A stretch of 64,000 nucleotides of DNA from positions 1 to 64,000 of IMG/VR virus record IMGVR_UViG_3300048930_000528; one strand, given 5' to 3'. The position numbers and the translations under genes were made by a program. The notes under the pieces are model-generated. The model saw nothing but the letters and a program-made list of their open reading frames with translations. It searched no databases and had not been told where the DNA came from. Source of the DNA: a virus. Positions 41,656-60,200 of this stretch are shown piece after piece. Within the stretch, counting starts at the first letter, position 1, and each line of letters starts with the position of its first letter.

Positions 41656-42575
41656 GCATCCGCACCAACAGCTACTTCAGCGGCGCCGGCCTGATGGACC
41701 TCGGCCTGCAACGTGGCGGGCTGCATGTCCAGGAGAGCTACGAGATCGATGAGACCTGCTGCGAAACGTTGCGTCAGAACTTCGACCACAAGGTGGTGCA
41801 GATGGACGTATCCAAGAAGCTGGTCTTCGATGAATCCGAATGCGACGCCATGGTGGCAACGTTCCCGTGCACCAAGTACTCGACCGCGGCCGACATCAAC
41901 GGCGCGAGGACGGGTGACGAACTCTTCCTGCACTTCTTCCGGCATGTGGCTATCCGCCGGCCGGAAGTGTACGCCGTGGAGAACGTGCCCGGCATGCGAA
42001 AGTTTCCCGTGGTGATGGAGGCGCTGACCAGGCTGCCCGACTACTACGTCAACGTCTTCTGTCCGGTTAGCAGCACCAACTGGCTGCCGCAGAAGCGTGA
42101 CCGACTGATCATCATCGGATCACGCAAGCGGTTCGGCTGGCGACCGCCCGAGGCGGGGCGCGTGCTGACGCTGGCTGAGATAATCGAAGAGAATCCGCAG
42201 GTCGAGATACCGGACTACGTGTACGCCAGGATCAACGGCAAGTACCGGGACCAGCCGATCGTGAGCGACCCTGCCAAGGGTGACGTGGCGCCGACGTGTG
42301 TTGCACACTACGCCAAGGATCTCGGGACACGCCTCGTGGTGGATCGCCGGTATCCGCATGGCGTGCGTCCGTATTCGGTGAGGGAGTACGCCCGGCTGCA
42401 AGGCCTGCCAGACACGTTCACTTTCGCTGGCACGAGTCGAGACGCTTACCGCATGATCGGCAACGGCGTATCCGTGCCCGTGGGTGAGTGGCTGGGCCGT
42501 GAGATTGTCCGCTACTTTGGGCGAGGCGCGAGGCCTCAGCCGCTCAGGCCGTTCCAGTTGGATCTTCTGTCATGA
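41652..42575 (+). CDS. C5 cytosine DNA methyltransferase
   Basis: FSGAG, FPC, ENV, Q.R.R, EYARLQG, IGNGV motifs. Confidence 0.9.
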   Translation: MSIRTNSYFSGAGLMDLGLQRGGLHVQESYEIDETCCETLRQNFDHKVVQMDVSKKLVFDESECDAMVATFPCTKYSTAADINGARTGDELFLHFFRHVAIRRPEVYAVENVPGMRKFPVVMEALTRLPDYYVNVFCPVSSTNWLPQKRDRLIIIGSRKRFGWRPPEAGRVLTLAEIIEENPQVEIPDYVYARINGKYRDQPIVSDPAKGDVAPTCVAHYAKDLGTRLVVDRRYPHGVRPYSVREYARLQGLPDTFTFAGTSRDAYRMIGNGVSVPVGEWLGREIVRYFGRGARPQPLRPFQLDLLS

Positions 42576-45480: not shown

Positions 45481-46478
45481 ACACCACCACCCAACCACCC
45501 AAGACCAAGCCGACCCGCATGGATGCACAGGAGGTCATGGACAGCATCGCCACCCAGCTTCCCGAGATCCTTGGCCACATCCACGCCGACGGCGACTGGC
45601 TGTGGTACACAGGCCCGTCGCTCCAGTCCTCGCCAGCCACCCGTCTGGTGCTCAAGGACATCGGCTTCCGGTTCGCGCCCCGCGGCCACGTCATGCCTGA
45701 AGGCAACGGCATCGGATCGTGGGGCCACTCGTGCCTCCGGCCCACGCCGCGCCGCCGCAAAGGCGACCGCCGTGCGGCCACTGCCGACACGCCCGAAGCC
45801 CATGCCGTCGATCCCACGGCGGCACTCGCTGCCCTCTTTGCGTAACCCACGAAACGAACTGACAGCCTCAACCTTTCCATCATCATGAGTACCATGCCCG
45901 CACCCGACATTGCCGCGGTCTTTACCGCCGCCCAAGCCAAGCTCCTCCACCTCGCCGTCGGCCTGCGTGACCGCGAGCCGCTCGCCATGCAGCGTATAAA
46001 CGCTTTCGTCCTCAACAAGACCGGCGCCAAGTTCAACGAGTACCTCACCGGCCCGACGCCCGTCGTCGAGAAGCTCGCCGTCGTGCAGGAAATCACCGCC
46101 ATCGTTGAGTCCGGCGACCTAAGCAAGCTGCCCTCGGCGCCCAACGGCCAAGCCTCGGCCCCGCCGACTGCGCCTCGCACCACCCCGCCGCCGGCCCCGC
46201 CCAAGGTCGAGCAGCCCAAGCAGCCCGAGGTCAAGCAGCCCGAGCCGCCTCCGGCCCCGCCCGCCCCGCCTGCCGTCGACGTGGACGACCTCGCTGACGA
46301 CGACATCGACGCCGACGAACTGGCCGGCGCCATCCAGACCATCGTCAAGGTGGCGGCCAAGCGCAAGGAACCCGCCGCCCCGCCGGCCCCGGCCTTCACC
46401 GAAGCTGACGTGCGCCGCATCATCCGGCACGAACTGGCCGATGCCATGGAGAAGATCGCCAAGGCGCTGCGTGCGTAA
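45477..46478 (+). CDS. Two hypothetical genes (45477..45845, 45885..46478)
   Basis: Coupled ORFs with phage codon usage. Confidence 0.6.
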
Positions 46479-46541
46479 CACCGGCAGTCTGCCACCGGAG
46501 GGGCGAAGCCCCGCAGGTTGGCAGTGATGCCTTGGTTCGAC
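46473..46541 (-). mobile_element. attC-like site A
   Basis: Minus strand GTCGAAC-caag..ctgccaacc..ggtggcag..-GTTACGC with central GGGGC/GCCCC hairpin. Confidence 0.75.
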
Positions 46542-46550
46542 CTTCTTTTT

Positions 46551-47068
46551 ATGAGCTTCGAATACCTGACAACATCCCTCGAAAAAACTCACGCGGCAGC
46601 CCGTGACATGGTCTATCGCGCGACCTTCTTACTCGCGAAACGCGATGACGGAGTGACGGCCTGCGCTCGCCTGCCGCGCCGAAACTCCCGCAAGCTGGAA
46701 ATAGGCTACTGCCTCGGCACGGGTCGAATGACTCATTGGGTCGAAACCGGCATCCTACCGACCGAACATCCCGGCGCGCTCGAATACTGGGTGAAGAAGG
46801 CGTTCTTCTACGCGGACGGACACATAGCGTGTGAGAAAAGGAAAAGCGCATGAGCTACGAAAACACTCAGTGCGTCTGCGGTGGGCGAAAGCTGACCGAC
46901 ACCATGCTGTGCGCCGACTGCGAGAAAGCAGTCGAAGGTACCTTCGACCGCCGCGAGATGGAAAATCCCGCAGCGACATGGGAGCAGCGGCGCAATGCGG
47001 CGATTCGCTGCCTCGCGGTCGCCCGCCGTCGCAACCCAAGCCTACCGCTTACCTATGCGTGCCGATAG
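46551..47068 (+). CDS. Two cassette-borne hypothetical genes (46551..46853, 46850..47068 zinc finger)
   Basis: Bounded by GTTCGACCT (46535) and AGGTCGAAC (47067). Confidence 0.6.
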
Positions 47069-47167
47069 GTCGAACGCACAAGCTGACCTATGACCACCGC
47101 GCCCATGACTACCGAATCCACAACAGACGCCGACGCGGTGGGCATTAAGTCCAGCGCCTTGTTCGGC
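47069..47167 (-). mobile_element. attC-like site B
   Basis: Minus strand GCCGAAC-aaggc-gctggac..ccaccgcg/cgcggtgg..gtcagc-ttgtgc-GTTCGAC. Confidence 0.85.
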
Positions 47168-47725
47168 GTGATTTACGCGGACCCGCCGTGGCGGTATGGC
47201 TTCTCTCAATCGGACTCACGCGCCATCGAGTCGCAATATCCGACAATGACCGACGAGGAAATCTGTGCTATCAAGGTGCCTGCTGCCAAGGATGCCGTGC
47301 TCTACCTGTGGGCGGTGGCTCCACGGCTCGCCGCAGGGCTGCGCGTCATGGAAGCGTGGGGATTCGACTACAAGACTTGTGCTGTGTGGGACAAAGAAAA
47401 GGTGGGCATGGGCTACTGGTGGCGCGGACAGCATGAAATCCTCATGGTCGGAACTCGCGGGAAGTTCTCGCCGCCTCCGCAAGCACTCCGCAAGTCGAGC
47501 GTGATTCGCTGCCCGCGTGGACGGCACAGCGCGAAGCCTGACCAAGTGCGCGACTGGATCGGGGAATGGTATCCCGACGTGCCCAAGCTGGAAATGTTCT
47601 CTCGGCTAAAACGACCGGGCTGGGAGGTCTTTGGAAATCAGGTCGAGTATGACCTGCTAAGCGGGGATTTTTCTTCGCCGAACGTCGCGGGTCAGACACG
47701 ACCCGCCGAAAACTCCAACCTGTAA
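47090..47725 (+). CDS. MT-A70 family N6-adenine methyltransferase (cassette)
   Basis: IYADPPW, YLWA, WGFDYKT, HSAKP, LEMFSR. Confidence 0.9.
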   Translation: MTTAPMTTESTTDADAVGIKSSALFGVIYADPPWRYGFSQSDSRAIESQYPTMTDEEICAIKVPAAKDAVLYLWAVAPRLAAGLRVMEAWGFDYKTCAVWDKEKVGMGYWWRGQHEILMVGTRGKFSPPPQALRKSSVIRCPRGRHSAKPDQVRDWIGEWYPDVPKLEMFSRLKRPGWEVFGNQVEYDLLSGDFSSPNVAGQTRPAENSNL

Positions 47726-47807
47726 CTCCCATGAAAAACCAAAATCCAACTGTAGTCTCTAGCCCGCAGGATCAGTGCGGGTCGTTGTCTGGGAACGCTG
47801 GTTCGGC
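47677..47807 (-). mobile_element. attC-like site C
   Basis: Plus-strand arms cagacacgacccgc / gcgggtcgt[t]gtctg between GCCGAAC and GTTCGGC. Confidence 0.85.
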
Positions 47808-48015
47808 TGCCTTTGCTTTTCCAGTGGGCTCCCGCGTGAAGATCATAGCCGCCGACCCAGAGTGCCCCGCCGACTTTATCGGCTCCGAAGGGACAGTGGT
47901 GAGAATCGCCCCAGCGGATGAAAACTGCTCAGACGATATGTATTCGGTGCGCACGGATAGCGGTAAGCAAGACGGATTCTTTTCAGATGAGCTGATTTCT
48001 TTGCCGAACCAGTGA
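47731..48015 (+). CDS. Small SH3-like hypothetical protein (cassette)
   Basis: FPVGSRVKI..GSEGTVV..YSV; starts inside attC C. Confidence 0.65.
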   Translation: MKNQNPTVVSSPQDQCGSLSGNAGSAAFAFPVGSRVKIIAADPECPADFIGSEGTVVRIAPADENCSDDMYSVRTDSGKQDGFFSDELISLPNQ

Positions 48016-48028
48016 TTGTGCCACGTGC
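48003..48028 (-). mobile_element. attI-like terminal site of array 1
   Basis: Minus strand GCACGTGGCACAATCACTG-GTTCGGC; core present, no partner arm. Confidence 0.5.
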
Positions 48029-48088
48029 GTCCGCATGGACTTGCGTAACTCAATATAAACCAACTCAAACCCAAACCACCCGTGCGAC

Positions 48089-51000: not shown

Positions 51001-52420
51001 CGAGACAGAGGAAAAGTTCTGCCGGCGCATGGGCCTGCCGTTCAGCAAGGATACTCCCGTGGAGCGCCACTACCACACTGGCGTTGGCTCGGCCAAGAAC
51101 GGTATCCGGTGCGTGGCGACGCCGTCGCTGTCCACCGTCATCGCAACCAACCATGGCGAGTGGGACATGGTTGTCTTGGACGAGGCGCACCTTTACCAGA
51201 GCCTTGAATCTTGCATCACGAACAACATGATCCGGCTTCAACCGCGGTTCAGGTTCGCACTCACTGCCACACCAATCAGCAACATCATCACGAACATATT
51301 CAGCCTCATGGGTTGGCTGTGCGTGAAGGACTGGTACAGGGGTGGGATGCGTAACGCCGCATGGCCCTATGCCGTGGACGAGGGGCATCGGTTTTCGACG
51401 ACATTCCTTGCCACCGAGATCGACCGCACGGCGCAGCTCAAAGCCAAGATGAAAGGCAAGAAGGGGTGGGGCAAGATCGGCATCAGGCCGTCGCCCGTCA
51501 TCAGTTCCCCGGCTCGCCTGCTCAAGCTCCTCAAGCCGACGATGGCGTACATCTCCAAAGAGGACTGCAACCCCAACCTCCAGCCGTGCACCGTGTCCGA
51601 TGTCCGCGTGCCAATGGGTCGCGAGCAGGCCAAGCTCTATGCGTACTGGCTGGAGCGGGCCAACTACGTTCCCGAGTTCAAGAACCCGCTGACGATCGCC
51701 CAGGTTCAGATGTCCCGGCTGCGTGGCGTCTGTGCCTCGCCGGCCAGCCTCGACTACACCCGCGGCATGGCCCGGTCCAACTTCAACCCGAAGACCGTCA
51801 CCATCCTTCAACTCATCCGTGACTGCCTCCGCAAGGGCGAGCAGGTGGTTGTCGTCTCGGCTCGTGTTGGCCAGTCAAACGAGTTGGCGCGTCGCCTTTC
51901 CGAGGCCGGAGTCCAGATCGCACGCATCGACTCGACCGTGCCGGCGGAGATGCACACGGCTGAGGCCAACAGGTTCAAGCGTGGCGACGCCCGCGTCATG
52001 CTCATGGGCATCAAGTGCGCACAGGGTCACTCGTTTGACCGATGCCCCAACCTCATCGTTGGCTCGCTCGAGTGGTCCTACGGCACGCTCGACCAGGCGA
52101 AGGGCCGGGTGTGGCGCCTGACCTCGCCTCAGCCCGTCAAGGTGTGGATCGTCCTTCACCAGAACACGATTGAGGAGCTCCTGTTCGACCGGGTTGCGCT
52201 CAAGCAGGACGCCGCCACGCTGTGCCTTCACGGCAAGCGGGTGCCGCGTGACTTCAAGACGCTTGACCCGAGCGAGGTGCTGGCCGAGCACATCGTTGAC
52301 TTCGACCACGAAGGCGAGACGCGGTCCGAATCCGAGTGCGAAACGCAGTGGCCCGACCTGCGCAAGCAGCTCGTCCTCGCCAACAACAGCGGCATCCCGG
52401 CCGGCTTCGCCGCGGCCTGA
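48089..52420 (+). CDS. DarB-like N6-methyltransferase + SNF2-type helicase fusion with intein
   Basis: QYSTP, VLDP..AAG, NPPF; STG|TGKT split by intein, LDEAH, TATP, QAKGRVWR. Confidence 0.85.
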   Translation: MIKDQRSGISAENLQEIIEAGVSAAHSLQGGAQQYSTPQWLANACRQLITDARPSCVLDPQGAAGNLVNALPDGVTRYVTDIDNRMGEDDASHLIKRIKGNCVYIFELFDELYPHVQFPCIVANPPFGIRWKQADGTTIDSTQWTWDLIKKRLTIGGCGFLISNANTLERLGITADPWVYIVQRFPAGGIWPDCNVELGIVHFANSASNILPRKQVVTWDRVPTASDIIRRLSGDVANAPYRRATYANPFTEFEVVSKIISEEAKNRPQFNIYLDKNGMLRTYLSLRHHHKFKEDDVKKLFRVNNCHPLSLTTERDTRKLMFELANAGIYTIQPEAKAAIEQALAEVASLACPIRPVTDFELVAYADEEDTLVAISGTVDGIHLTPGKRYEVGTGTYTFTDRFTRKKIHFNEETEETTIDEHDCELSGQDRYVQITDDRGMQHRFMERPETGIKWMHPESMLWTLFKRPFVPTVGEVMADCVATNLQKMAFSELVAGFTYFPGQRDYYSRMACKDYGLVAASTGCHAKGTLIMMSDGRNKIVEDIIVGDCVMGWDSTPRRVTRLAQGRQQMAKIIPTKGDPFVVNLDHILTLVKTGTSSSVGGDVIDVKVRDYLGWKPSQKHIYKLFRKEISLQAKPIDSLSPYFMGVYIGDGTSTSWQVAITKPDKEVEDAVADECSKWGWRYRTALRSGSETNKTHFIPGHGIKRELYQHGLLGIHSSNRFIPDAYKYNSRDVRLEVLAGIIDSDGHLCDAGTFDYISQSQSLADDVVWLARSVGLAAYVKPCQKYCQTGGGGTYHRVSISGELSIIPTRIKRKQAAQRRQKKSVLRTGFKVELLPEDDYYGFSIEGDGRFLLGDFTVTHNTGKTLGALTLISLKAPRRSLIIAPQGTMRSSGSEEEVDYQASQWVQEITRFAPLEPVFQLFSMQDYLSVLHANGGVLPPGIYVTYPQAYFSNSAFESLPATWENLDAFETEEKFCRRMGLPFSKDTPVERHYHTGVGSAKNGIRCVATPSLSTVIATNHGEWDMVVLDEAHLYQSLESCITNNMIRLQPRFRFALTATPISNIITNIFSLMGWLCVKDWYRGGMRNAAWPYAVDEGHRFSTTFLATEIDRTAQLKAKMKGKKGWGKIGIRPSPVISSPARLLKLLKPTMAYISKEDCNPNLQPCTVSDVRVPMGREQAKLYAYWLERANYVPEFKNPLTIAQVQMSRLRGVCASPASLDYTRGMARSNFNPKTVTILQLIRDCLRKGEQVVVVSARVGQSNELARRLSEAGVQIARIDSTVPAEMHTAEANRFKRGDARVMLMGIKCAQGHSFDRCPNLIVGSLEWSYGTLDQAKGRVWRLTSPQPVKVWIVLHQNTIEELLFDRVALKQDAATLCLHGKRVPRDFKTLDPSEVLAEHIVDFDHEGETRSESECETQWPDLRKQLVLANNSGIPAGFAAA
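49661..50677 (+). mobile_element. Intein with LAGLIDADG homing endonuclease (339 aa)
   Basis: Starts CHAKGT, LAGIIDSDG, ends VTHN followed by Thr; lower GC. Confidence 0.92.
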
Positions 52421-52424
52421 CACC

Positions 52425-52625
52425 ATGAGCAACGACTTCGAGAAGGTGGAGCTTCACGGCGGTCCGCTTGACGGGCTTGAGTTGTTTGCCAGCGAATCGT
52501 TCAAGCTGGAGGAACTCGATCCCGAGACTGGGCTCATCCACGTCTACGTGAGACGCGGCAGTGGCGTCTTCCAGTACGCCGGCCACCAGCCATCCGGCCT
52601 GCCTCCGGCGCTGGGCGGAAGCTGA
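52425..52625 (+). CDS. Hypothetical protein
   Basis: LHGGPLDG motif common in small phage proteins. Confidence 0.55.
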   Translation: MSNDFEKVELHGGPLDGLELFASESFKLEELDPETGLIHVYVRRGSGVFQYAGHQPSGLPPALGGS

Positions 52626-52626
52626 T

Positions 52627-52656
52627 TTGACATTGCCAAATCGCCGGATGTAACCT
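52627..52656 (+). promoter_or_regulatory. Sigma70-like promoter upstream of second recombinase
   Basis: TTGACA-18 nt-TAACCT, 11 nt before ATG. Confidence 0.55.
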
Positions 52657-52667
52657 CGGATTCCAGC

Positions 52668-53669
52668 ATGCCCACGACAAAGAAAGCCGCAGGACTCAAG
52701 ATCAAGGCGATGGACTCCACCAAGGTGACGCCGGCGGCGATCCGCGCAGCCAAGAAGATCCTTCGGGCCGCCGAAGAGTCGGGCATGCAGGATGCAATCC
52801 TCGCTGCGCTCATGCAGCGGAAGACCGTACCCGTGAAGCAGGCCTTGGCCGAGTGGCACCTATGGCGGAAGGCGAACTCGTCAGCGTCCACGCTCCGCAC
52901 CAACCGGCTGGCACTAGATCAGTTCTTCGATGGGCTCGAGGCCGCAAACTGGCCGGTGTCAAAAATCACGATCCAGCACATTGACGCATGGGTTAACAAA
53001 GACGACGCCTGCAAGCGGGCCACCCGCGAGGCAAAGCTCGCCGCCATCCGATCGTTCTACAAGTTCGTCACCGCGAATGCCTATTGCCAGACCAACCCGG
53101 CGCAGCTGGTGCATGTTCGCATTCGCGACATGACGCACGCTCAGCTGGAGCGCACCGTGCGCGAGCCCATCACCGAGCACGAGTACCGGCATATCATGGC
53201 CAACACCGAAGGCTTTTGGAAATGGGCAACGGCGATCAGCTACTGGGCGGGGCTGCGCATGAGCGACGTGTTCGCACTCCAGTGGGCTCAGATCATGCCC
53301 ACCGAGATCGTAGCCTGGGCGAAAAAAGACGGCGACCGGCTAGTGCTTCCACTCAACCACCCGCTCATCGGCGGAGGGGAGTTGGTGCCTGTGCTGTTCG
53401 AGGTATTGAGTAATCGCCAAGACGATACATACTGCTTCCCCGATCAGCATCGCGAGATGGCCGACATCGAGAAGCGTTCCAAGTTCTCGGTCTACTATAC
53501 ACGCCTGCTTGCCGGGCTAGGCATTGAAGGCAAGAGCTTCCATTCGCTGCGGCATGCGTTTGCCACCCGGCTCGCCAACGCAGGGGTGACACCTGAGCAG
53601 ATCGGGCGGTGGATGGGGCACAGTTCGACGCGCATCACCGAGGGGTACATCCACCGCGGCAAGCGATGA
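52668..53669 (+). CDS. Tyrosine recombinase (Xer/Int-like, no IntI insertion visible)
   Basis: GLRMSD, AKKDG, FHSLRH, MGHSS, GY. Confidence 0.9.
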   Translation: MPTTKKAAGLKIKAMDSTKVTPAAIRAAKKILRAAEESGMQDAILAALMQRKTVPVKQALAEWHLWRKANSSASTLRTNRLALDQFFDGLEAANWPVSKITIQHIDAWVNKDDACKRATREAKLAAIRSFYKFVTANAYCQTNPAQLVHVRIRDMTHAQLERTVREPITEHEYRHIMANTEGFWKWATAISYWAGLRMSDVFALQWAQIMPTEIVAWAKKDGDRLVLPLNHPLIGGGELVPVLFEVLSNRQDDTYCFPDQHREMADIEKRSKFSVYYTRLLAGLGIEGKSFHSLRHAFATRLANAGVTPEQIGRWMGHSSTRITEGYIHRGKR

Positions 53670-53709
53670 TCGGTAAACCATCATCAATCATCGAATCCCT
53701 GATCGTCCA

Positions 53710-54188
53710 ATGAGTAACCCACAGAACGAACTGACGCCGTCCGCTGGCCCGAATTGCGCTGTGGCGTCTGGTTCGCCTCCGGGGCTCTACAACCTATACG
53801 TCCGCCACACCGATGGGCGCACAAAGAAACTGACGGGCTACGCGATGACACATCACGAGTGCTGCGTGATGAAGAGCAAACTAAGCGAATGGACGCAGGC
53901 TCGCACACTGCTCGTAAAGGAGACGAAATGAAACACGACCCAGACCACTACCTCACGCAGCCGATGGACAATCAGGAGGCGGCGCACAATCGCCGCGTGG
54001 CCGTGACGGCCGAGAACGTCGCCGCGTGTGCGCAAGCCATCCGCGACCTCGACCGCATCACGCCGCGCCCGCTCACCGCCGAAGACCAAGCGCGTGCCGT
54101 GCTCACGTTCTTGGCGAACACCAAGGTGACCGATGCGCAGCCCAAGGCGAACGACGCCGGACCGGGTAGCAATGCGCATTCGGTCTAG
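53710..54188 (+). CDS. Two cassette-borne hypothetical genes (53710..53931, 53928..54188)
   Basis: Between GTTCGCC (53771) and GGCGAAC (54113); ATGA overlap. Confidence 0.6.
53727..53777 (-). mobile_element. Truncated attC-like site E
   Basis: Minus strand GGCGAAC-cagac-gccacagcgcaa arm (same as site I arm); partner arm degenerate. Confidence 0.6.
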
Positions 54189-54201
54189 CGAATGGTTCAG
54201 C
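54113..54201 (-). mobile_element. attC-like site F
   Basis: Arms gaccgatgcgca / tgcgcat[t]cggtc between GGCGAAC and GTTCAGC. Confidence 0.88.
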
Positions 54202-54209
54202 CCTCTTTT

Positions 54210-54482
54210 ATGCCCTCACCAATCGAAAGAATGATCGACGCCGCGACCGGCTACACGCCGCCGCCAGCGCCGAAGAAACGCACGCTCCCGACTGCCGAAG
54301 AAAAGCAGATAGCGACCGATGCCGGAAACGACGTCATCTGGTATATCGACGCGCAGTATCCCGCGATGTGGGACGGCGTGCCGAAGTCAGCGCGGACCAG
54401 CGTGAAAAACGCCGTCTACAACCGCGTGATCTTAATCTTGCTGAACGCCAAGATCAGCAACGCGGGGACGAAAACAGAATGA
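54210..54482 (+). CDS. Hypothetical protein (cassette)
   Basis: Between GTTCAGC and GCTGAAC; stop lies in attC G. Confidence 0.65.
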   Translation: MPSPIERMIDAATGYTPPPAPKKRTLPTAEEKQIATDAGNDVIWYIDAQYPAMWDGVPKSARTSVKNAVYNRVILILLNAKISNAGTKTE

Positions 54483-54569
54483 CTCTATGAGCACGAAAAT
54501 CGAAGACAAACCCATAGCGAGCGCCGGAGCGGACAGCTCCCCGCGTTGCGCTGTATCGCCTGGTTCGAC
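54440..54569 (-). mobile_element. attC-like site G
   Basis: Arms gatcagcaacgcgggga / tccccgcgtt[gc]gctg[t]atc between GCTGAAC and GTTCGAC. Confidence 0.88.
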
Positions 54570-54771
54570 GATTGAAACGACCGAACGCAAGGTGATGGTC
54601 GCGCTCTGCGGACTGTGCATCGCCGTCTTCTGCGCGGCTCTTCTCGGCATCGCTTTCTACGTGCATGTCGTCGCCGGGCTATTCGCTCTCGCGCTCATCG
54701 CGTGGTGGCTCGGCTCATCGATGGCCGAAGTGCTCAAGGAAACTCGCGAGCGTGATTCGTCGAACGACTAG
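54487..54771 (+). CDS. Two-TM membrane protein (cassette)
   Basis: Starts inside attC G loop; long hydrophobic segment. Confidence 0.7.
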   Translation: MSTKIEDKPIASAGADSSPRCAVSPGSTIETTERKVMVALCGLCIAVFCAALLGIAFYVHVVAGLFALALIAWWLGSSMAEVLKETRERDSSND

Positions 54772-54854
54772 GTATGCCAGCCCTACCCGCCATCGATGTT
54801 GATTCGCCAGTAACTGCCCGCCGGGTAGGGATTGGCATGACCGACTTGTTCGGG
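54759..54854 (-). mobile_element. attC-like site H
   Basis: Arms ggtatgcca.ccctacccg / cgggtaggg..tggcat[g]acc between GTCGAAC and GTTCGGG. Confidence 0.88.
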
Positions 54855-55331
54855 GTTGTGGACGTGGTGCCGAGTGACATCGTGCTGACCCCGGAACCAA
54901 TCGCGCAAGCCGTGGTGGAACGCTTCAAACCATCTGGCCGCGTGCTCGATCCGTGCAAGGGAGATGGTGCCTTCCTGAAGTTCATGCCTGGTGCTGAGTG
55001 GTGCGAGATTCGCGAAGGCCGATGCTTCTACGACTGGAAAGAGCCGGTGGACTGGATCGTCTCGAATCCACCTTACAGCGTCTTCTCGGACTTCCTTCGG
55101 CACAGCTTCACGGTGGCGGAAAACATCGTCTATCTGATCCCCGTCAACAAGGCGTTCAACTCTGACAAGATGATGCGCGAAATCTGGTCATGGGGAGGCG
55201 TGAAAACCATCTTCGTGATTGGCTCCGGTGGATCGCTGAACTTCCCAATCGGCTTCTGCATAGGAGCTGTTCACTTCGTGCGCGGCTATCGGGGCGGCGC
55301 GAATGTGGAATTTTATACCCCGAACACCTAG
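54774..55331 (+). CDS. Small N6-adenine DNA methyltransferase (cassette)
   Basis: TP..IA, VLDPCKGDGAF, WIVSNPPYS. Confidence 0.85.
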   Translation: MPALPAIDVDSPVTARRVGIGMTDLFGVVDVVPSDIVLTPEPIAQAVVERFKPSGRVLDPCKGDGAFLKFMPGAEWCEIREGRCFYDWKEPVDWIVSNPPYSVFSDFLRHSFTVAENIVYLIPVNKAFNSDKMMREIWSWGGVKTIFVIGSGGSLNFPIGFCIGAVHFVRGYRGGANVEFYTPNT

Positions 55332-55412
55332 CTCAGACATGGCTGGCTCTCCCTCAACTCTCGAACACTTGGCGGCCCCGCGCCAGCCATTGTCTGTGGC
55401 GTCTGGTTCGCT
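55319..55412 (-). mobile_element. attC-like site I
   Basis: Arms cagacatggctggc / gccagccat[t]gtctg between CCCGAAC and GTTCGCT. Confidence 0.88.
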
Positions 55413-56130
55413 GCTTCTTTGGAACGCGGACTGCATAGAAGTGCTGCCACAAATCACGGCGGCGGCGGTTATCACCGATCCGCCCTATGGCATCAACGAT
55501 GCAGCTTTCGATTCGGGGCCACGCGAAGGAAAACGCAAGGGAGGCGATAATACTTGGCATCCGGCAAGCGATTGGGATGCGGAGATAAAGCCGGAATGGT
55601 GCGCTGCGGTATGCGCTGCCGCGCCGGTGGTCGCATGGATGGGCCACTGGAGAAAACGCGGCATGGTAGAGGCAGCGATGCCCCACAAACTGCGCGCGGA
55701 AATAGTGTGGGCAAAAGACTGCCATGTAGGCCCGCCATGTCCGGTGGCAATGCAGGATGAGCGCGTGTGGCTATTCTCGCGCGAAGGCATCACGGCTAAG
55801 CGATTTGACACGACCGTGTGGAGCGTTCCGATAATCCCGACGTGGGCACATAAGCACCACAAAAACGAGAAGCCGGTCGCGCTGATGGCGCGAGCGATCT
55901 ACCTGCTGACATCCGAAGGTGATACCGTGCTCGATCCATTCATGGGGAGCGGCACGACGGCAATCGCGTGCATCCGGACGGGCCGCAAATTCATCGGGGT
56001 GGAGCGCGACCCCGCGCACTTCCAAACGGCAGTCGAGCGCATCCGCCGAGAACTGGCACAGGGCGACCTGTTTTTGCCAGCGAACACTGAGGTCAGAGAA
56101 TCGCGCCCTGACCCGACCAAACAACCCTGA
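55339..56130 (+). CDS. N4/N6 beta-class DNA methyltransferase (cassette)
   Basis: ITDPPYG, H..EKP, VLDPFMGSGTT, FIGVE. Confidence 0.9.
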   Translation: MAGSPSTLEHLAAPRQPLSVASGSLLLWNADCIEVLPQITAAAVITDPPYGINDAAFDSGPREGKRKGGDNTWHPASDWDAEIKPEWCAAVCAAAPVVAWMGHWRKRGMVEAAMPHKLRAEIVWAKDCHVGPPCPVAMQDERVWLFSREGITAKRFDTTVWSVPIIPTWAHKHHKNEKPVALMARAIYLLTSEGDTVLDPFMGSGTTAIACIRTGRKFIGVERDPAHFQTAVERIRRELAQGDLFLPANTEVRESRPDPTKQP

Positions 56131-56187
56131 ACCTTCAACGAACAATCAGAGCGGCTGCACGCGATTCTCTGCACCGTCTGGTTGGGA
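56079..56187 (-). mobile_element. attC-like site J
   Basis: Arms ggtcagagaatcgcg / cgcgattctctg[c]acc between AGCGAAC and GTTGGGA. Confidence 0.88.
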
Positions 56188-56196
56188 ATTTCCATC

Positions 56197-56457
56197 ATGG
56201 ACCAAATACTAAAAGCACGATCTGCAATCGTCGCGGAACTCAAACGCCGCGCTCTGGAAAAAGACCCGAACGTAAGGCCACTGAATCCGGATGCCGCCCT
56301 TCGCTGGCACAAGCCGCAGGACAACTACTATTCGGGCGCTGGCGAAATGGCGTGCCCGATCTGCGAGGCAGGGAAACTGCGCTACAGCCGAAGCGGCTAC
56401 AATGGGCATGTCCACGCGGGCTGCACAACGGAAGGGTGTGTGTCATGGATGGAGTGA
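56197..56457 (+). CDS. Zinc-ribbon hypothetical protein (cassette)
   Basis: CPIC..YNGHVHAGC..C..WME. Confidence 0.7.
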   Translation: MDQILKARSAIVAELKRRALEKDPNVRPLNPDAALRWHKPQDNYYSGAGEMACPICEAGKLRYSRSGYNGHVHAGCTTEGCVSWME

Positions 56458-56467
56458 CCGCGACACT

Positions 56468-56580
56468 TCCCAACGAAAAAGGTGAGCCGCGCTCGCCGAA
56501 GAAAGGACAATGACATGAGCGGAGAAAAGACATCCGAAGACGTGACGGCTGCGAGCGTTGGCTCTACCGACGGGTTCGGC
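56468..56580 (-). mobile_element. attC-like site K
   Basis: Minus strand GCCGAAC-ccgtc-ggt[a]gagcc[a]acgctcgc..gcgagcgcggctcacc-tttttc-GTTGGGA. Confidence 0.9.
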
Positions 56581-56838
56581 GATGGCTGCGACCACTGTGA
56601 CACCTTCGGAGGGCAGAAGACCTACGCGAACCAAGCGTGCCTGCCGCTCAACGGTCGCGTCGTGTGCGTGGACTGGTGCATCCATCAAATCGTGGCGGCG
56701 CTCAACGCCGGCGGCGTGCGCACGACTGCGTGCTGCTGCGGTCATGGGCGAATGCCGGGCCGCATCGACCTTGAGGACGGCCGCATACTCACGATCTCTT
56801 CGCCGAACAAGGCGGATATGCCGACGTGCAGCAAATAA
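56515..56838 (+). CDS. Cys-rich hypothetical protein (cassette)
   Basis: VDWCI..LN..G..T..CCCGHG motif; starts in attC K. Confidence 0.7.
   Translation: MSGEKTSEDVTAASVGSTDGFGDGCDHCDTFGGQKTYANQACLPLNGRVVCVDWCIHQIVAALNAGGVRTTACCCGHGRMPGRIDLEDGRILTISSPNKADMPTCSK
56802..56829 (-). mobile_element. attI-like terminal site of array 2
   Basis: Minus strand GCACGTCGGCATATCCGCCTT-GTTCGGC; core present, no partner arm; resembles 48003-48028. Confidence 0.5.
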
Positions 56839-56847
56839 GCGGAACTC

Positions 56848-57210
56848 ATGCAGGCCTTACTTCGTTACCCCAAACGTCAGCGCAGCGCCAAAGCCAGGGA
56901 GTGGGGTGCTCGTGGCAATGCGTCCCAAGCCGTCGCCAGGCTCACGCGAGACCTGCCATGGGAGACCATCGTAGCTCGCGCACGCGACGACGAACGCGGA
57001 AAGCTGACTCGCCATGGATGCACCTACTTCGGCGACGGCCGCATTGTGCATTGGGAAATTCGCCGATCCATCGCCGGCCGCCACAACCAGTTCGATGTGA
57101 TTGCCGACGGCATTCTCGTCCGAACCTATGGCCAGCGTCGTCTTCAGTCGTGGCTTAGGATGGTGCCACCTATCAAAGCCCCATCGCCTGCAGCGCAGCG
57201 CGCCGCCTGA
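56848..57210 (+). CDS. Basic hypothetical protein
   Basis: 120-aa ORF converging on the giant gene. Confidence 0.5.
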   Translation: MQALLRYPKRQRSAKAREWGARGNASQAVARLTRDLPWETIVARARDDERGKLTRHGCTYFGDGRIVHWEIRRSIAGRHNQFDVIADGILVRTYGQRRLQSWLRMVPPIKAPSPAAQRAA

Positions 57211-60200
57211 CGTCTTCGAGGTTGGGCACGCGTGAAGCCCGCGGGCGCATGGCCGATCCCATCCGGCGAGCGATGGCCTCCTGCAAATCGCTCGGCGCGA
57301 TCATGTCCGTGTAGCGGTCGAAGAGACTCAGCGCCTCGTTGACGGCCATGCGCCCGTCTTCACCTAAGGCTGACATCAGCCGCCCCATCTCAGCCTCGCT
57401 TGGCTTGGTGCGGAACGTGGTCGTCAGTGGGTTGCGCGACTTCCAGTTGGTAAGGACGTACGACTCTGGCGACTCTTCGCCGCGTGCACGCGCGGCCGAG
57501 ACCGCGTTCCGGTACGCCTCAAGGAATCCGATCCTGTCATTCGACAGGGCCTTCAGTTGCATCTGGCGAATCCAGACCGACACTGGCGTTGGTGAACTGC
57601 GGCCGGCGCCCATGCGAAGTTCAAGCCCCGCCTCGCGTCCGGCGGCGCGCAGGTAGTTGTTGACGTTGATCCGGTTCGTGACCTGCGCCTCGGAGTTTGA
57701 GAGGCCAAAGGCGTTATTTAAGATCTGCGTTGCCTGAATTTGCCCGCCAAATCCAAAGGCATTAAGCGCCGGCCGGATGGTGGACGCATAGGTCACAGCG
57801 CCCTCGGTGTGGATCAGGTCGCGCACGATGTCGCGCATGTTGGCAAACTGGGAGAAGATCAGAATGCGCGAGTTTAGGTCGAAGTCGCGCTGGCCTGCCT
57901 GCGGATCGACGATGTTGAATACCGACGACACGGCATCGCCCGCTAGGCCGAACGTGCCGGCACGAGCAGCGCGCTCGAGGATTGCCAGTGCGCCTACCCG
58001 GTCGCCCTGCAAGGACTCAGCCGCAGCATTCGCTACACCAACCACTGGTACCATGTCGATCGGGCGCAGCTTCCGCAGATTAGGCTCCTTGGCCAGCAAC
58101 TCGCGGTCGTACGCGTCCATGAGTAGGGAGTATGCGAGGCCAGCAGGCAGAGACCAAAGTGCCATGATGCCGATGCCCTTAACAATGGACGCCACTTGGA
58201 ATCGGCCGTCCGTCGTCTTGAGCGCCTCGTTGATCTGGTTCACTTTGGAGATTGGCCAGCCGAGAAGCAGGCCGCCGAATCGCCACACCGGATTATTGAA
58301 CCACTCCACCGGGCGGGTGTTGATCGACGACTCCAGCGACACCTCGTTGACGGCCATCATTGCAACGCCAAGTGCTTGGTCCCGGGTGAGAAGCGTTTCG
58401 CCCTTTGCCGCGCGCCGCATGGCGCCGCGCACGACGTCCTCAAGGTTGCCGATCTGGTACTCGCCAAGCCTGTCTCGGTAAAACCGGAACGCACCTTCAT
58501 CAGAGAAGTATGCACCTCCCTTCATGCCCAGCATATCCGGCGTAAACCGGAACGCGGGGTCCGCCTCTGCGTTGGGATTGCGGCGGAAGTAATCGATCCC
58601 GCGGGCAACCATCTGGTCGAAGACCTGCACGTTGGCCGTGGCGATCGAGGTGATACTCTTTTCGGACAGGTAGCGGAAGGGTGCCCACAATGCGTTGAAC
58701 ACACCAAACCTACCAGTGGGCTTCGGCAGCGATTCAAGCGCCTTGCTTAGTGCTGGAACATTCTTGACCACCGGAGCCCTTGATAACGCAGACAGGTCTA
58801 GGCCGCCGCGCATCGCTTGGTTTACACCTCGGACAATCTGGACTACACGGTTTGATCCGCCTTCCTGGAAGCTGGCATTCCTACCAATGTCAGCCATGCG
58901 CTGCCCCATCTGGAGGCTGCTGGTTGCGCGCCCCTCAAATGCTTCGCCGATCCATATCTGGTAGTCCGAAGCCTGGAGGAAATTAAGGCCGAAGTTGTCG
59001 AGTGCGCTTCCGAGAACCTCAGTCCCGAACGTCTTCCACGCCTTGCCCGTAACCACAAGCCCGGTGGGACCAAGGCCCTTGTATGCCAGCGGGAAATCGA
59101 ACAGCGACATCAAGTTCCACAGACCCGACTTTGGCTGGTTGAGAACCATCATCACGTTGAGTTGGGCAAGCTCAAGCGCCCAGCGTGCATCCCCCACGGC
59201 GCCAGTCGTGTTACCGTAGGAGAAGTACTCGTTCATCTGGTTCTCCCAGCGCTCGACGTTTGCCATGTCCTTTGCCGCGCGCTCAAGGTCGTCGAAGTTC
59301 CATCCGCGGTCAGTGGCCGCGCGTCGCTTCACGGAGGCTGGCCCCGGTGGCAGCTGCTGGTAGAGGCGATACCGGCCGGCGAGATCCGCACGAAGGTCAG
59401 TCAGGTCTTGCTGCACGCCTGAACCGTCACGCCCGAACGCAGCATGAAACGCAATCTCGGCGAGGAAGTTCTGTGCCGACTTGGCCTCGAACACTTCGTA
59501 CTGTAACCACTCAGGCGGAATGAGATCGTTGGTTCGACCATCCATCAGCCGGTGCTGCTTCGACGTGCGCCCGCCATTCAGGTTTGGCGCCTTGTCCACC
59601 TTGGCGACCAGCTTGGAGCCCATCTTGTAGAGCCCGGCAAATCGCTTGAGCATAGCCGCTCGGTACGCCGGAAGGTCGGCGTCGGTGTCGAGCTCGTTCG
59701 TTCGCGCGAAGAGGTTGTCGATCCACGCCGCGACGTCGCCACCAGATTCTTCCCATGCCTCAAGCGCAATCTCCTGCGGAACGTAGGCCCGCTCGCCGGG
59801 CGTGTTCGACGCGCCCATGAATACCGACCGCCCAGGCTTGCGGACGAATGGAGCAACGAAGTCACGCACTATCTCCGGCGTGAAGTAGGTCCCAATCGCT
59901 TCCGCAAAGGCCGCATCTTCGTAGGCCTCCTCGGCAAACAAGTCATCCTTCCAGCCTGCCTTGGCCATGGTGTCGGTGACAGCCTCGATCGCAGAGGCAC
60001 GCAGGCGCCGCGGCATGGTGAGCCAGCCGTACTTGATCGCATGGCGGAGCATGTTCTGGTCCGAGGTGAGCGGGTCCTTGATACGCGGGTCTTCCACGTA
60101 CACGCCGTGCTTCTCTGCGACCGCCTTCATGTGCTCGGACATCTCTTTGCTTGCGCGAAGGAAGGCGATGAACCGCTCGCCAAAGTTGTCAGCCACCTTC

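What the first reader, a model, noticed from the sequence alone, without database searches (positions are those of the whole stretch)
53727..56838. Phage-borne integron-like cassette array (7 cassettes) directly downstream of a tyrosine recombinase
Seen: six complete 89-130 bp imperfect inverted repeats (54113-54201, 54440-54569, 54759-54854, 55319-55412, 56079-56187, 56468-56580) plus a truncated one (53727-53777) separate the genes. They differ in sequence but share attC architecture on the minus strand: NNNNAAC core, 5-nt spacer, L-box with an extrahelical base, usually a second bulge, variable loop, GTTNNNN core. The two cores of one site usually do not match, but the cores bounding one cassette match exactly: GTTCGCC/GGCGAAC, GTTCAGC/GCTGAAC, GTTCGACGA/TCGTCGAAC, GTTCGGGGT/ACCCCGAAC, GTTCGCTG/CAGCGAAC, GTTGGGAA/TTCCCAAC, GTTCGGCGA/TCGCCGAAC. 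Established: this is the footprint left when circular cassettes are inserted by IntI-type recombination at G|TT. Inference: the phage builds its accessory region from shuffleable cassettes.
Basis: partly seen in the sequence, partly recalled or inferred. Interest (0 to 1): 0.95.

Follow-up and report, generated by a model that had tools for sequence, protein, structure and literature searches.

The report
Reversed integron gene cassettes in phage
This 72-kb phage keeps about ten small accessory genes, three of them DNA methylases, in genuine integron-type swappable cassettes that are built back to front, and it has no integron integrase of its own.

Summary
Six complete hairpins, one truncated one and a lone end box lie at the stated places. 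The cores bounding each cassette match over 7, 7, 9, 9, 8, 8 and 9 nt, against 3-5 nt within a hairpin; only 1 of 5040 permutations reaches this. A second array lies at 46473-48010.

The sites are true attC sites. Their geometry fits the published attC bottom strand, and sites of the same family lie beside bona fide IntI genes in Verrucomicrobiota (Opitutae-type) genomes.

Single cassettes recur elsewhere. One is 97.5% identical in a Mu-like phage contig. Breakpoints fall exactly at the AAC cores, with seven different right-hand neighbours.

This is an integrase-less attC cluster (a CALIN, known in phages: Qi et al. 2023), not a self-contained integron. The neighbouring recombinase is Xer-like, lacks the IntI insertion, and is a core gene in 11 of 11 relatives, 9 of them without sites. 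Three other phage records (two complete) carry such arrays with no tyrosine recombinase.

The unusual part is that all genes lie on the attC bottom strand, starting in one hairpin and ending in the next. Earlier notes of this scan report the same reversed design on other DNA. I found it in none of my four literature searches for phage-borne or reversed cassettes.

The parts
52668..53669 (+). Xer-like tyrosine recombinase (rec2). It is a neighbour of the array, not an integron integrase.
   Evidence: Pfam Phage_integrase 71.5 bits plus the SAM-like N-terminal domain. XerC/XerD models about 60 bits; IntI model TIGR02249 31.9 bits against a cut-off of 265. It lacks the IntI-specific segment. Orthologs occur in 11 of 11 related loci.
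53722..53777 (+). S0: truncated attC. Only the 3' half is kept, and it ends in GTTCGCC.
   Evidence: nt 53739-53775 match the 3' half of site 2 of L035 at 36 of 37 nt. Identity with the same cassette in L184/L185 starts at 53754. The model gives only 11.5 bits.
53754..54118 (+). Cassette 1, with two small ORFs (53710-53931 and 53928-54188). The same cassette occurs in other phage and metagenome contigs.
   Evidence: 97.5% nt identity to L184 and 92.9% to L185 over 53754-54119/54120. At least 99% identity in Logan contigs of 3 runs from 3 studies, ending at 54119/54120. No Pfam or PHROG family.
54113..54201 (+). S1: attC site (the + strand is the bottom strand). AAC at 54117-54119, GTT at 54195-54197.
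   Evidence: (69.9 bits)
54192..54482 (+). Cassette 2 gene (96 aa, unknown function). Its ATG lies directly before the GTT of S1, and its stop lies in the loop of S2.
   Evidence: no family
54440..54569 (+). S2: attC site.
   Evidence: (71 bits)
54487..54771 (+). Cassette 3 gene (94 aa; its second half is hydrophobic). It starts in the loop of S2 and stops in the spacer of S3 (AAC GAC TAG).
54757..54857 (+). S3: attC site. AAC at 54763-54765, GTT at 54848-54850.
   Evidence: (69.8 bits). A contig of run X2 is identical from 54763 onward.
54774..55331 (+). Cassette 4 gene: DNA methyltransferase-like protein (185 aa; the true start may be the ATG at 54836).
   Evidence: PHROG 799 DNA methyltransferase, E 5e-22. 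Pfam N6_Mtase is below its cut-off. A homolog in run X8 ends 2 nt after the AAC of S4.
55319..55413 (+). S4: attC site. AAC at 55323-55325.
   Evidence: 81.2 bits. Its minus strand matches the top strand of the first attC of a complete integron (L080) at 20 of 21 nt in the AAC arm.
55339..56130 (+). Cassette 5 gene: N4/N6 DNA methyltransferase. Its ATG lies in the stem of S4.
   Evidence: Pfam N6_N4_Mtase 88.9 bits; PHROG 67. A 4356-nt contig of run X2 matches 55323-56086, which is S4 plus the gene up to the AAC of S5.
56078..56188 (+). S5: attC site. AAC at 56083-56085.
   Evidence: (71.4 bits)
56197..56457 (+). Cassette 6 gene (86 aa, Cys-rich).
   Evidence: PHROG 31210, unknown function, E 1e-13
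56468..56582 (+). S6: attC site.
   Evidence: (68.4 bits)
56515..56838 (+). Cassette 7 gene (107 aa, Cys-rich). It starts in the loop of S6 after AAGGA.
   Evidence: PHROG 12958 is a weak hit
56797..56830 (+). S7: right end of array 2. It is a lone 5' box (TCTTCGCCGAAC) with no hairpin behind it.
   Evidence: The 9-nt match to the 3' box of S6. No fold.
46473..46542 (+). A1: first attC of array 1. The TAA stop of the core gene 45885-46478 overlaps its AAC.
   Evidence: Its 3' box matches the 5' box of A2 over 9 nt. The model gives only 11.4 bits.
46551..47068 (+). Array 1, cassette 1: two small ORFs (46551-46853 and 46850-47068).
47068..47169 (+). A2: attC site.
   Evidence: (87.5 bits)
47090..47725 (+). 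Array 1, cassette 2: MT-A70-type DNA methyltransferase (DPPW motif).
   Evidence: PHROG 359 DNA methyltransferase, E 8e-56
47676..47809 (+). A3: attC site.
   Evidence: (65.4 bits)
47731..48015 (+). Array 1, cassette 3 gene (94 aa). It ends ...CCG AAC CAG TGA at the array's end box.
48002..48031 (+). A4: right end of array 1. It is a lone 5' box (TTGCCGAAC) followed by CAGTGATTGTGCCACGTG.
   Evidence: The 7-nt match to the 3' box of A3. 15 of the first 18 nt after AAC are shared with the end of the array in phage record G001.

Best explanation
The region is one of two clusters of genuine integron attC sites (CALINs) in a complete 72-kb tailed phage. It holds seven mobile cassettes; the other array holds three.

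Shown by the sequences:
- The sites belong to the attC family of the chromosomal integrons of Verrucomicrobiota (Opitutae-type bacteria).
- A cassette therefore runs from the C of one AAC, through its hairpin and the gene behind it, to the AA of the next AAC.
- The polarity is reversed relative to classical cassettes. The hairpin lies in front of its gene and often holds the ribosome site, the start codon and the first codons.
- The gene usually has no stop of its own. It reads AAC as Asn and ends a few codons into the neighbour's hairpin.

Inferred:
- The cassettes are cut out and inserted in trans by the integron integrase of the host during infection, or in a lysogen.
- This lets unrelated phages of the same hosts share a pool of accessory genes. 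In this phage that pool includes three DNA methyltransferases that probably protect phage DNA from restriction.
- The Xer-like recombinase next to the array is a core gene of the phage lineage and is not needed for the cassettes.
For: Site anatomy.
- The geometry fits the published bottom strand: AAC on one arm, extrahelical bases on the opposite arm (the first at position 16), a 6-bp stem up to the last extrahelical base, and 5-6 nt unpaired spacers. These features come from passages of Nivina et al. 2016, PMC5027507. They are seen.
- Every listed + strand call of the scanner has its extra bases on the 3' arm of the + strand.
- The cassette-bounding cores match as described above.
- On 63 sites from 14 sources, 91.6% of cells pair, against 72.2% in shuffles (0 of 500 as high) and 30-38% when the partner is slid. 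All 14 stem pairs show changes on both sides. The fourth R-box pair is broken in 29 of 63, as expected for hybrid boxes in arrays. That alignment was fitted to the model.

Same site family beside real IntI.
- The model hits arrays in a Nibricoccus genome (9 sites in 8 kb), a Verrucomicrobiota contig and an Opitutae contig. That is 3 of the 80 loci searched, out of 120 listed loci from a capped scan.
- These genomes encode IntI at 301-420 bits against a cut-off of 265.
- In 3 of 3 complete integrons (L080/L175, L173, L177) the model's strand is the coding strand of intI and the sites lie on the 5' side of intI. The cassette ORFs lie on the other strand in L080.

Mobility at the core.
- Cassette 1 recurs at 97.5% and 92.9% identity in L184 and L185 over 53754-54119/54120. 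It recurs at 99% or more in contigs of three runs.
- Directly after GGCGAAC there are seven different neighbours: this phage, L184, L185, L186, L187, and runs X1 and X3.
- L184 and L185 become identical exactly at the C of the upstream core.
- A contig of run X2 holds 55323-56086, from the AAC of S4 to the AAC of S5. The hairpin therefore travels with the gene behind it.

Cassette content in relatives. None of the 12 cassette ORFs tested has a tblastn hit in the 11 related loci, although the flanking helicase and recombinase are kept.

No enzyme of its own.
- IntI over its cut-off is found in 0 of 5 phage records.
- No PF00589 match is found in 3 of 5 array-bearing phage records, two of them complete.

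Reversed polarity.
- In 23 of 26 inter-site gaps of 5 phage records the best frame open across the whole gap (by GC3) lies on the bottom strand.
- In the bacterial arrays 8 of 9 gaps have the longest ORF on the top strand.
- AAC is in frame at 36 of 47 sites (p 1.6e-9).
Against: - No recombination product of this phage itself was seen. No public run holds the stretch (best share 0.08), so activity in this genome is inferred from other contexts.
- The host is not identified. The link to Opitutae-type integrons rests on site similarity alone.
- IntegronFinder's attC model could not be run.
- In the two closest relatives (L004, L005) the sites lie on the 5' side of the rec2 ortholog and on its coding strand. 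That is the geometry of intI-attI-cassettes, so a role for rec2 is not excluded.
- In L004 two of the cassette-bounding core pairs match over only 5 and 3 nt (read by eye).
- S0 and A1 are at noise level for the model.
- The frame and strand counts use simple ORF heuristics in GC-rich DNA and misassign some sites, for example S2.
- It is not known whether IntI would insert cassettes of this polarity at the array ends seen here.
Confidence: 0.7

Rival explanations
1. The adjacent Xer-like recombinase (rec2) is the cassette recombinase. This phage lineage would then have its own integron-like platform, run by a non-IntI tyrosine recombinase acting on folded attC-type sites.
For: Arrays touch the rec2 gene in three related phages: this one, L004 and L005. 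In L004 and L005 the sites lie on the 5' side of rec2 and on its coding strand, as cassettes do relative to intI. The site nearest the gene is a short 52-53-nt hairpin followed by the gene's promoter-like region. Xer recombinases are the closest NCBIfam matches of rec2. That Xer recombinases are the nearest relatives of IntI, and can act on folded single strands, is recalled knowledge.
Against: rec2 orthologs follow the helicase gene in 11 of 11 related loci, but 9 of those have no attC-like site by the model or by a structure-only scan. Arrays of the same site family occur in 3 phage records without any PF00589 match, two of them complete. They also occur beside true IntI in bacteria. rec2 lacks the IntI-specific segment. 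In this phage array 2 lies on the 3' side of the gene, and array 1 lies 4.6 kb away beyond the helicase gene. Short hairpins of 52-67 nt also occur inside arrays far from any rec2.
Confidence: 0.12
2. The arrays are frozen relics. They were acquired en bloc from an integron or from another phage by ordinary (homologous or illegitimate) recombination, and the cassettes no longer move in phages.
For: The left end of array 2 is a truncated, chimeric site (S0). Both right ends are lone boxes without a hairpin. No excision product of this phage was seen. Qi et al. 2023 (section 3.4) also consider off-target homologous and illegitimate recombination as routes into phage genomes.
Against: The same cassette, at 93-100% identity, has seven different right neighbours, with the junction always at the AAC. 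It sits in unrelated phage types: this 72-kb phage, and a contig with a Mu-type transposition protein. Close relatives of this phage hold entirely different cassettes at conserved flanks. The reversed, in-frame design is kept across at least 5 phage records, which points to continuing selection on exchangeable units.
Confidence: 0.1
3. The hairpins are mainly regulatory elements of the phage (terminators, RNA structures for translational coupling, or binding sites), and they resemble attC only by convergence.
For: On the mRNA strand the loops carry ribosome sites and start codons, and the arms carry stops. They therefore surely affect translation. Rfam has no family for them.
Against: There is sequence-level homology to attC sites next to IntI. 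The cores are chain-complementary. Breakpoints fall at AAC in other contexts. The extrahelical-base geometry is that of attC.
Confidence: 0.03

Closest known systems
CALINs (clusters of attC sites lacking an integron integrase) in phage genomes; Qi, Rajabal, Ghaly, Tetu and Gillings 2023, Front Microbiol, PMC9892861 (abstract and section 3.4 read, text searched; supplements not seen)
   Same: These are attC arrays without IntI in temperate and virulent phages. DNA methyltransferases are among the cassette genes. The authors propose that phages draw on the cassette pool to counter host defence, and they show experimentally that phage attC sites are recombined by IntI1.
   Different: That paper does not mention genes lying on the attC bottom strand: a text search found no occurrence of 'opposite', 'reverse' or 'antisense'. 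It does not describe genes reading through the recombination point, or the same cassette shared between unrelated phages. This phage has two arrays with ten cassettes. Its sites can be tied to one bacterial attC family (Verrucomicrobiota).
Classical integron cassettes and attC sites (class 1 and Vibrio integrons); Nivina et al. 2016, PMC5027507 (passages read)
   Same: The shared features are AAC/GTT cores, an R box and an L box, 5-6-nt unpaired spacers, and extrahelical bases on the arm opposite AAC. The first of these is at position 16, followed by a stem of about 6 bp and a variable loop. [quoted passage not shown]
   Different: In classical cassettes the gene lies on the top strand, upstream of its attC, with its own start and stop, and depends on promoter Pc. 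Here the gene lies on the bottom strand, downstream of its attC. It starts inside that attC and mostly ends inside the next one.
Chromosomal integrons of Verrucomicrobiota/Opitutae genomes
   Same: They hold the same attC sequence family. Model scores are 30-54 bits, and 20 of 21 nt in one arm are shared between S4 and the first attC of L080.
   Different: They have IntI (301-420 bits) and a junction next to intI. Their cassette genes lie on the top strand, with non-coding spacers.
Xer-type and phage tyrosine recombinases (XerC/XerD; PHROG 1 integrases), for the neighbouring gene
   Same: rec2 has the SAM-like N-terminal domain and the catalytic domain, with R, H-x-x-R, H and Y kept in the alignment.
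   Different: It is below every curated NCBIfam cut-off (60 bits against 330). Unlike its orthologs, it lacks their N-terminal segment of about 40 residues. Its target site is unknown.

Membership tests
integron attC recombination site | Conserved AAC and GTT triplets at the two ends, pairing as an R box. | tested here: met
   All 9 complete sites of the window have them. The three core pairs are kept in 61-63 of 63 sites of the family.
integron attC recombination site | Imperfect hairpin with an unpaired central spacer of 5-6 nt, an L box, and a variable terminal structure (Nivina 2016). | tested here: met
   Constrained folds show 5/5-nt spacers in S1-S5 and 6/5 in S6 and A2; A1 and A3 fold with shorter ones. 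Loops span about 20-90 nt. Covariation is seen in 14 of 14 stem pairs.
integron attC recombination site | Extrahelical bases on the arm opposite AAC in the recombined strand: the first at position 16, and a stem of about 6 bp up to the last one. | tested here: met
   In S3, S4 and S6 a bulged base follows the 3-bp L box, then a 6-bp stem, then a second bulge. In S1 the stem has 5 bp, S2 has a 3-bp stem, and S5 has only one bulge. Every listed + strand call has its extra bases on the 3' arm of the + strand.
integron attC recombination site | The boxes that bound one cassette are complementary, so that they form the R box of the circular cassette. | tested here: met
   7-9 nt in 10 of 10 cassettes of the window, against 3-5 nt within a site (7 for A3). 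1 of 5040 permutations reaches this.
integron attC recombination site | [quoted passage not shown] | tested here: met
   Breakpoints of shared cassettes fall at 54119/54120, 54763, 55323, 55327 and 56086. Identity between L184 and L185 begins at the C. These are positions only; the chemistry was not tested.
integron attC recombination site | Recombined by an integron integrase. | not testable with these tools
   Sites of the same family lie next to IntI genes in 3 complete integrons. An assay is needed.
integron attC recombination site | Recognised by the IntegronFinder or HattCI attC models. | not tested
   These models are not available here. Rfam 15 gave no match.
complete integron | An intI gene (TIGR02249 over its cut-off, with the IntI-specific segment) next to the array. 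| tested here: not met
   The best match in the phage is 21-32 bits against 265. The segment is absent from rec2.
complete integron | An attI site at the integrase-proximal end of the array. | tested here: inconclusive
   The right ends A4 and S7 are lone boxes. A4 shares 15 of 18 nt with the array end in another phage. The resemblance to the junctions next to intI in L080 and L177 (AAC|AGTGTTATT) is too short to call.
[quoted passage not shown] | Two or more attC sites and no integron integrase nearby. This definition is as used in Qi 2023 section 3.4 and in the preprint 10.1101/2024.07.02.601686 (passages). | tested here: met
   There are 6 complete sites in array 2 and 3 in array 1. There is no IntI in the whole 72-kb genome.
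integron integrase IntI (for rec2) | The curated family score and the extra segment between the conserved patches. | tested here: not met

The most novel reading that the evidence does not exclude
Phages of integron-bearing hosts maintain their own pool of reverse-polarity cassettes with a standard interface. The attC bottom strand is the mRNA strand. Each hairpin serves as the translation start module of its own gene and as the stop module of the gene before it. The recombination point sits in a fixed reading frame (AA|C = Asn), so any cassette can be placed after any other and still be translated. Unrelated phages, here a 72-kb terminal-repeat phage and a Mu-like phage, would then trade anti-defence genes by borrowing the host's IntI. 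In this lineage the conserved Xer-like recombinase next to the sites might have been recruited as a helper or substitute.
Probability: 0.4. Interest if true: 0.8.

Novelty: new variant of a known kind. Interest (0 to 1): 0.7.

Why it matters
Integrons are the textbook device by which bacteria collect and reshuffle genes, and phage-borne attC clusters were reported only in 2023.

This phage shows that such clusters are not stray pieces of bacterial integrons. The cassettes have a different build. The gene lies on the recombined strand, the hairpin sits in front of the gene, and the coding sequence runs across the recombination point in a fixed frame. This build recurs in several unrelated phage genomes. 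Identical cassettes also move between those genomes at single-base precision.

If the host integrase does the work, integron-bearing bacteria would hand their phages a ready-made tool for swapping counter-defence genes such as orphan methyltransferases. That bears on the arms race between integron-encoded defence cassettes and phages. It also gives a natural test of how strand choice and cassette orientation are set, and the reversed cassettes may help with the open question of how cassettes arise.

Tried and rejected
Searches and counts that led nowhere:
- Rfam 15 on 52000-58000, both strands, E up to 1: no match.
- INPHARED phages, blastn of 52600-57300: only a 135-nt methylase match to a Rhizobium phage.
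- The recombinase as a single query in viral contigs: no relative. Relatives were then found with the helicase C-terminus.
- An energy-only hairpin scan did not separate the sites from GC-rich background. It was replaced by an arm-alignment scan. Its background is 21-33 hits per shuffled genome at score 16, and the real sites score 25-30.
- The longest-ORF strand call was noisy in GC-rich DNA. It was supplemented by a count of open frames across each gap with GC3.
- The look-up of sequencing runs: no run holds the stretch; the best share is 0.08 and all 24 rows have small shares. No habitat, host or excision product of this phage can be named.
- In read laying, 34 pieces and 51 loose ends were not shown.
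- Cassette 1 protein in viral contigs: no relative. The metagenome scan then gave 5 loci.
- The helicase C-terminus in the four Verrucomicrobiota genomes G006-G009: nothing found with this query, so no host link either way.

Readings considered and rejected or left open:
- Reading the cassettes in the classical way (gene followed by its own hairpin, cut at G|TT on the + strand) was rejected. The extrahelical bases, the strand of the same sites beside intI, and the X2 contig that carries S4 together with the downstream gene all say otherwise.
- Reading A4 and S7 as attI sites is left open. They also look like 5' arms of attC sites.

Gaps and slips:
- Three queries (c55341, a46552, o52426) were out of frame. 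Two were redone in frame; the third is not a cassette gene.
All 120 listed loci were searched with the model, but further bacterial arrays surely exist.
- The supplementary tables of Qi et al. 2023 (their list of 17 CALIN phages) could not be seen. They may bear on the novelty claim.

Full report
WHAT IS THERE

The window is the first 64 kb of a 72,049-bp virus record with direct terminal repeats, rated 100% complete. It is 62.6% G+C. It encodes a large terminase, virion and tail proteins, and an integrase at 21161-22282.

Genes from about 26 kb to 57 kb run on the + strand. After a 1443-aa SNF2-type helicase gene (48089-52420) and a tyrosine recombinase gene (52668-53669) comes the stretch in question. 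It ends where a convergent giant ORF begins (57173 onward, 2940 aa over the whole record).

CHECKING THE OBSERVATION

Every hairpin is at the stated place. Folded as single-stranded DNA with the AAC and GTT triplets paired, each site shows:
- a short R box;
- unpaired spacers of about 5 nt;
- an L box of about 3 bp;
- a bulged base on the 3' arm of the + strand;
- a further stem of about 6 bp, usually a second bulge, and a variable loop.

The 3' box of site n and the 5' box of site n+1 are complementary over 7, 7, 9, 9, 8, 8 and 9 nt. The two boxes of one hairpin share only 3-5 nt in S1-S6. Only the observed order, 1 of 5040 permutations, reaches the observed total.

A structure-only scan of the whole genome puts these sites at the top, at 25-30. 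All other places score 24 or less, and shuffled genomes give 21-33 hits at the much lower score of 16. A covariance model built from eight of the sites (R1) finds nothing comparable elsewhere in the 72 kb. S0 and A1 are weak for that model, at about 11 bits.

ARE THEY attC SITES, AND WHICH STRAND IS WHICH

Passages of Nivina et al. 2016 describe the recombined bottom strand:
- AAC lies in the R' arm.
- The extrahelical bases lie on the opposite arm. The first is at position 16, inside L''.
- A 6-bp stem separates the first and last extrahelical bases.
- Spacers of 5-6 nt are unpaired on each arm.

On the + strand S3 reads CGAAC, 5 nt, GGT, ATGCCA ... TGGCAT, a bulged G, ACC, 5 nt, GTTCG. That is this geometry exactly. 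S4 and S6 fit it too. S1 has a 5-bp stem, and S2 and S5 deviate in one feature each. By this criterion the + strand is the bottom strand.

An independent test gave the same answer. A degenerate 18-mer from the 3' arms was scanned over one genome per prokaryote species (capped at 120 rows). Model R1 was then run on all 120 loci. It found arrays in three records:
- a Nibricoccus sp. genome (L081, nine sites in 8 kb);
- a Verrucomicrobiota contig (L080);
- an Opitutae contig (L131).

These genomes encode integron integrases scoring 301-420 bits on TIGR02249 (cut-off 265). None of 14 control genomes passes the cut-off.

In three complete integrons (L080/L175, L173, L177) sites of the family lie on the 5' side of intI, and the model's strand is the strand that encodes intI. 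That is the bottom strand in the classical layout; the layout itself is established knowledge.

The minus strand of S4 and the top strand of the first attC of L080 share 20 of 21 nt in the AAC arm, and 11 of 11 nt in the other arm.

Over 63 sites from 14 sources, 91.6% of the cells pair, against 72.2% in shuffles (0 of 500 as high) and 30-38% when the partner is slid. All 14 stem pairs show changes on both sides. That alignment was fitted to the model.

DO THE CASSETTES MOVE, AND WHERE ARE THE JOINTS

Eleven related viral loci keep the helicase and, right after it, an ortholog of the recombinase (tblastn, 11 of 11). None of the 12 cassette ORFs tested has a hit in them.

The two closest relatives hold other cassettes with the same kind of site between the helicase and the recombinase: L004 has three sites and L005 has one. 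In L004 the stretch corresponding to array 1 holds one long ORF instead, which I did not identify.

No public run holds this phage, but single cassettes turn up elsewhere.
- Contigs from three runs of three studies match 53754-54119/54120 with 0-2 differences. They continue with different letters after the AAC of S1.
- A 4356-nt contig matches 55323-56086 at about 90%, from the AAC of S4 to the AAC of S5.
- Another contig is identical from 54763, the AAC of S3.
- Another ends 2 nt after the AAC of S4.
- A metagenome scan with a cassette 1 protein gave five loci, all inside arrays of the same site family. In L184 the cassette is 97.5% identical and in L185 it is 92.9% identical, over 53754-54119/54120.

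Directly after ...GGCGAAC there are seven different continuations in seven contexts. L184 and L185 differ upstream of the cassette's hairpin and become identical exactly at the C of the core.

So the unit that moves runs from the C of one core, through the hairpin and the gene behind it, to the AA of the next core. That is cutting at AA|C of the + strand, as integron integrases do.

L184 carries a Mu-type transposition protein and L185 a ParB-like protein. The cassette is therefore shared between unrelated kinds of phage-like elements.

THE REVERSED BUILD

In the bacterial arrays the genes lie on the top strand, between the sites. This holds for 8 of 9 gaps by longest ORF. In 6 of 9 gaps no frame stays open across the whole gap.

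In the phage arrays the genes lie on the bottom strand and fill the gaps completely. In 23 of 26 gaps in five phage records the best frame open across the whole gap, by GC3, is on the bottom strand. The counts are 9 of 10 in this phage, 2 of 2 in L004, 4 of 4 in G001, 6 of 8 in G003 and 2 of 2 in G002.

Start codons lie in the hairpin. For the genes at 54487, 56515 and 47731 they are in the loop. For 55339 and 47090 they are in the stem. For 54192 the ATG abuts the GTT.

The upstream gene usually reads AAC as Asn and stops 2-23 codons later inside the neighbour's hairpin, for example AAC GAC TAG, AAC ACC TAG and AAC CAG TGA. By eye this holds for 8 of 11 cores in the window. By a simple longest-frame rule it holds for 36 of 47 sites of the phage and metagenome arrays (p 1.6e-9 against one third). 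That rule misassigns some sites.

As a consequence the protein's tail changes with the neighbour. The cassette 1 protein aligns with its L185 homolog only up to residue 64, the Asn.

WHO DOES THE CUTTING

The phage has no integron integrase. TIGR02249 gives at most 21-32 bits, and 0 of 5 array-bearing phage records pass the cut-off.

The neighbouring recombinase is a generic Xer-like or phage-type enzyme. In an alignment with two Nibricoccus IntI proteins, it and its orthologs have gaps where the IntIs share a segment of about 27 residues.

It is a core gene of the lineage, present in 11 of 11 loci. Nine of these, at 44-50% G+C, show no attC-like site near it. Records G001, G002 and G003 have arrays but no PF00589 match at all; G002 and G003 are rated complete.

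The simplest reading is that the host's IntI acts in trans. This is inferred, not shown, and the host is not identified.

One point favours the rival. In L004 and L005 the sites lie on the 5' side of the recombinase gene and on its coding strand, the geometry of a true integron. I give the rival 0.12.

ENDS OF THE ARRAYS

On the left, array 2 starts with a truncated site (S0). Its last 24 nt are shared with the hairpin that precedes the same cassette in L184 and L185. Its nt 53739-53775 match another phage's site at 36 of 37 nt.

On the right, both arrays end in a lone 5' box with no hairpin. A4 shares 15 of the first 18 nt after AAC with the end of the array in G001, although the flanks are unrelated.

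The junctions next to intI in L080 and L177 read AAC|AGTGTTATT in the same orientation. That resemblance is too short to call these ends attI.

WHAT IS KNOWN

Four of my five full-text searches looked for phage-borne or reversed cassettes. They turned up one paper on attC arrays in phages: Qi et al. 2023 (abstract and section 3.4 read).

That paper reports 17 CALINs in phages. It shows that five of six tested phage attC sites are recombined by IntI1, and it reports five methyltransferase cassettes. A word search of its text found no mention of reversed polarity.

The preprint 10.1101/2024.07.02.601686 (passages) treats integron cassettes as anti-phage defence banks, not as phage cassettes.

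Earlier notes of this scan report the same reversed design in other phage genomes. These are unchecked AI notes and I do not count them as evidence. They do mean the scan has seen this before on other DNA.

VERDICT

The element is a genuine, integrase-less attC cassette cluster, a known kind in phages. Its cassettes have a reversed, in-frame architecture that I did not find described. There is unusually direct evidence for cassette exchange between phages at the AA|C core.

Scores: novelty, new variant of a known kind; interest 0.7; confidence in the overall explanation 0.7. Confidence is higher, about 0.9, that these are mobile attC cassettes. It is lower, about 0.6, that a host IntI moves them.

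Noticed in passing
window 48089-52420: The 1443-aa SNF2-type helicase carries an insertion of about 280-340 residues (roughly 525-863) that relatives lack. It starts with Cys and ends ...THN before TGKT, so it looks like an intein. tblastn against L004 and L005 splits into two pieces, residues 2-524/535 and 808/864-1432. The 918-aa helicase at 26637-29393 gives similar PHROG hits in its N-terminal third.
   Followed up: partly
window 45840-45866 and 53714-53740: A motif of about 25 nt (TAACCCAC.GAACGAACTGAC.GCC) stands before the core gene 45885-46478. It stands again before the first ORF of array 2, where it replaces the lost 5' half of S0. It may be a regulatory element, or the trace of the recombination that truncated S0.
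   Followed up: no
window 21161-22282: A second tyrosine recombinase (373 aa; PHROG 1 integrase, E 4.5e-24; PF00589 30.6 bits) lies near the terminase gene. The close relative G004 has only the rec2-type gene.
   Followed up: partly
window 52668-52800 against L004 12289-12500 and L005 5380-5560: The orthologs of rec2 have an N-terminal segment (..SG.Y.V.F....G.S..RST..) that rec2 of this phage lacks. It resembles an arm-type DNA-binding domain; that resemblance is recalled, not tested.
   Followed up: no
window 41442-42575, 47090-47725, 54774-55331, 55339-56130: The window holds at least four DNA methyltransferase genes: PHROG 116, 359, 799 and 67. Three of them lie on cassettes.
   Followed up: partly
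L185 7719-7726: The box upstream of the shared cassette reads GAGC instead of AAC. This is either a degenerate core or a junction made with a non-canonical partner.
   Followed up: no
L175 (= L080) 176-1882, minus strand: The IntI reading frame of this low-coverage contig departs from the family after ...ADIRTVQ. The HMM match is split (602-1414 and 466-561). This is probably a frameshift or an assembly error.
   Followed up: no
L081 (Nibricoccus chromosome 296-304 kb): This array of nine or more sites lies far from both IntI genes of that genome (at 919 kb and 5147 kb). It is therefore itself an integrase-distant cluster.
   Followed up: no
window 57173-64000 and beyond (to 65995): A giant ORF of 2940 aa lies on the minus strand, convergent with the cassette array. 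In L004 its homologous position follows the recombinase gene directly.
   Followed up: no
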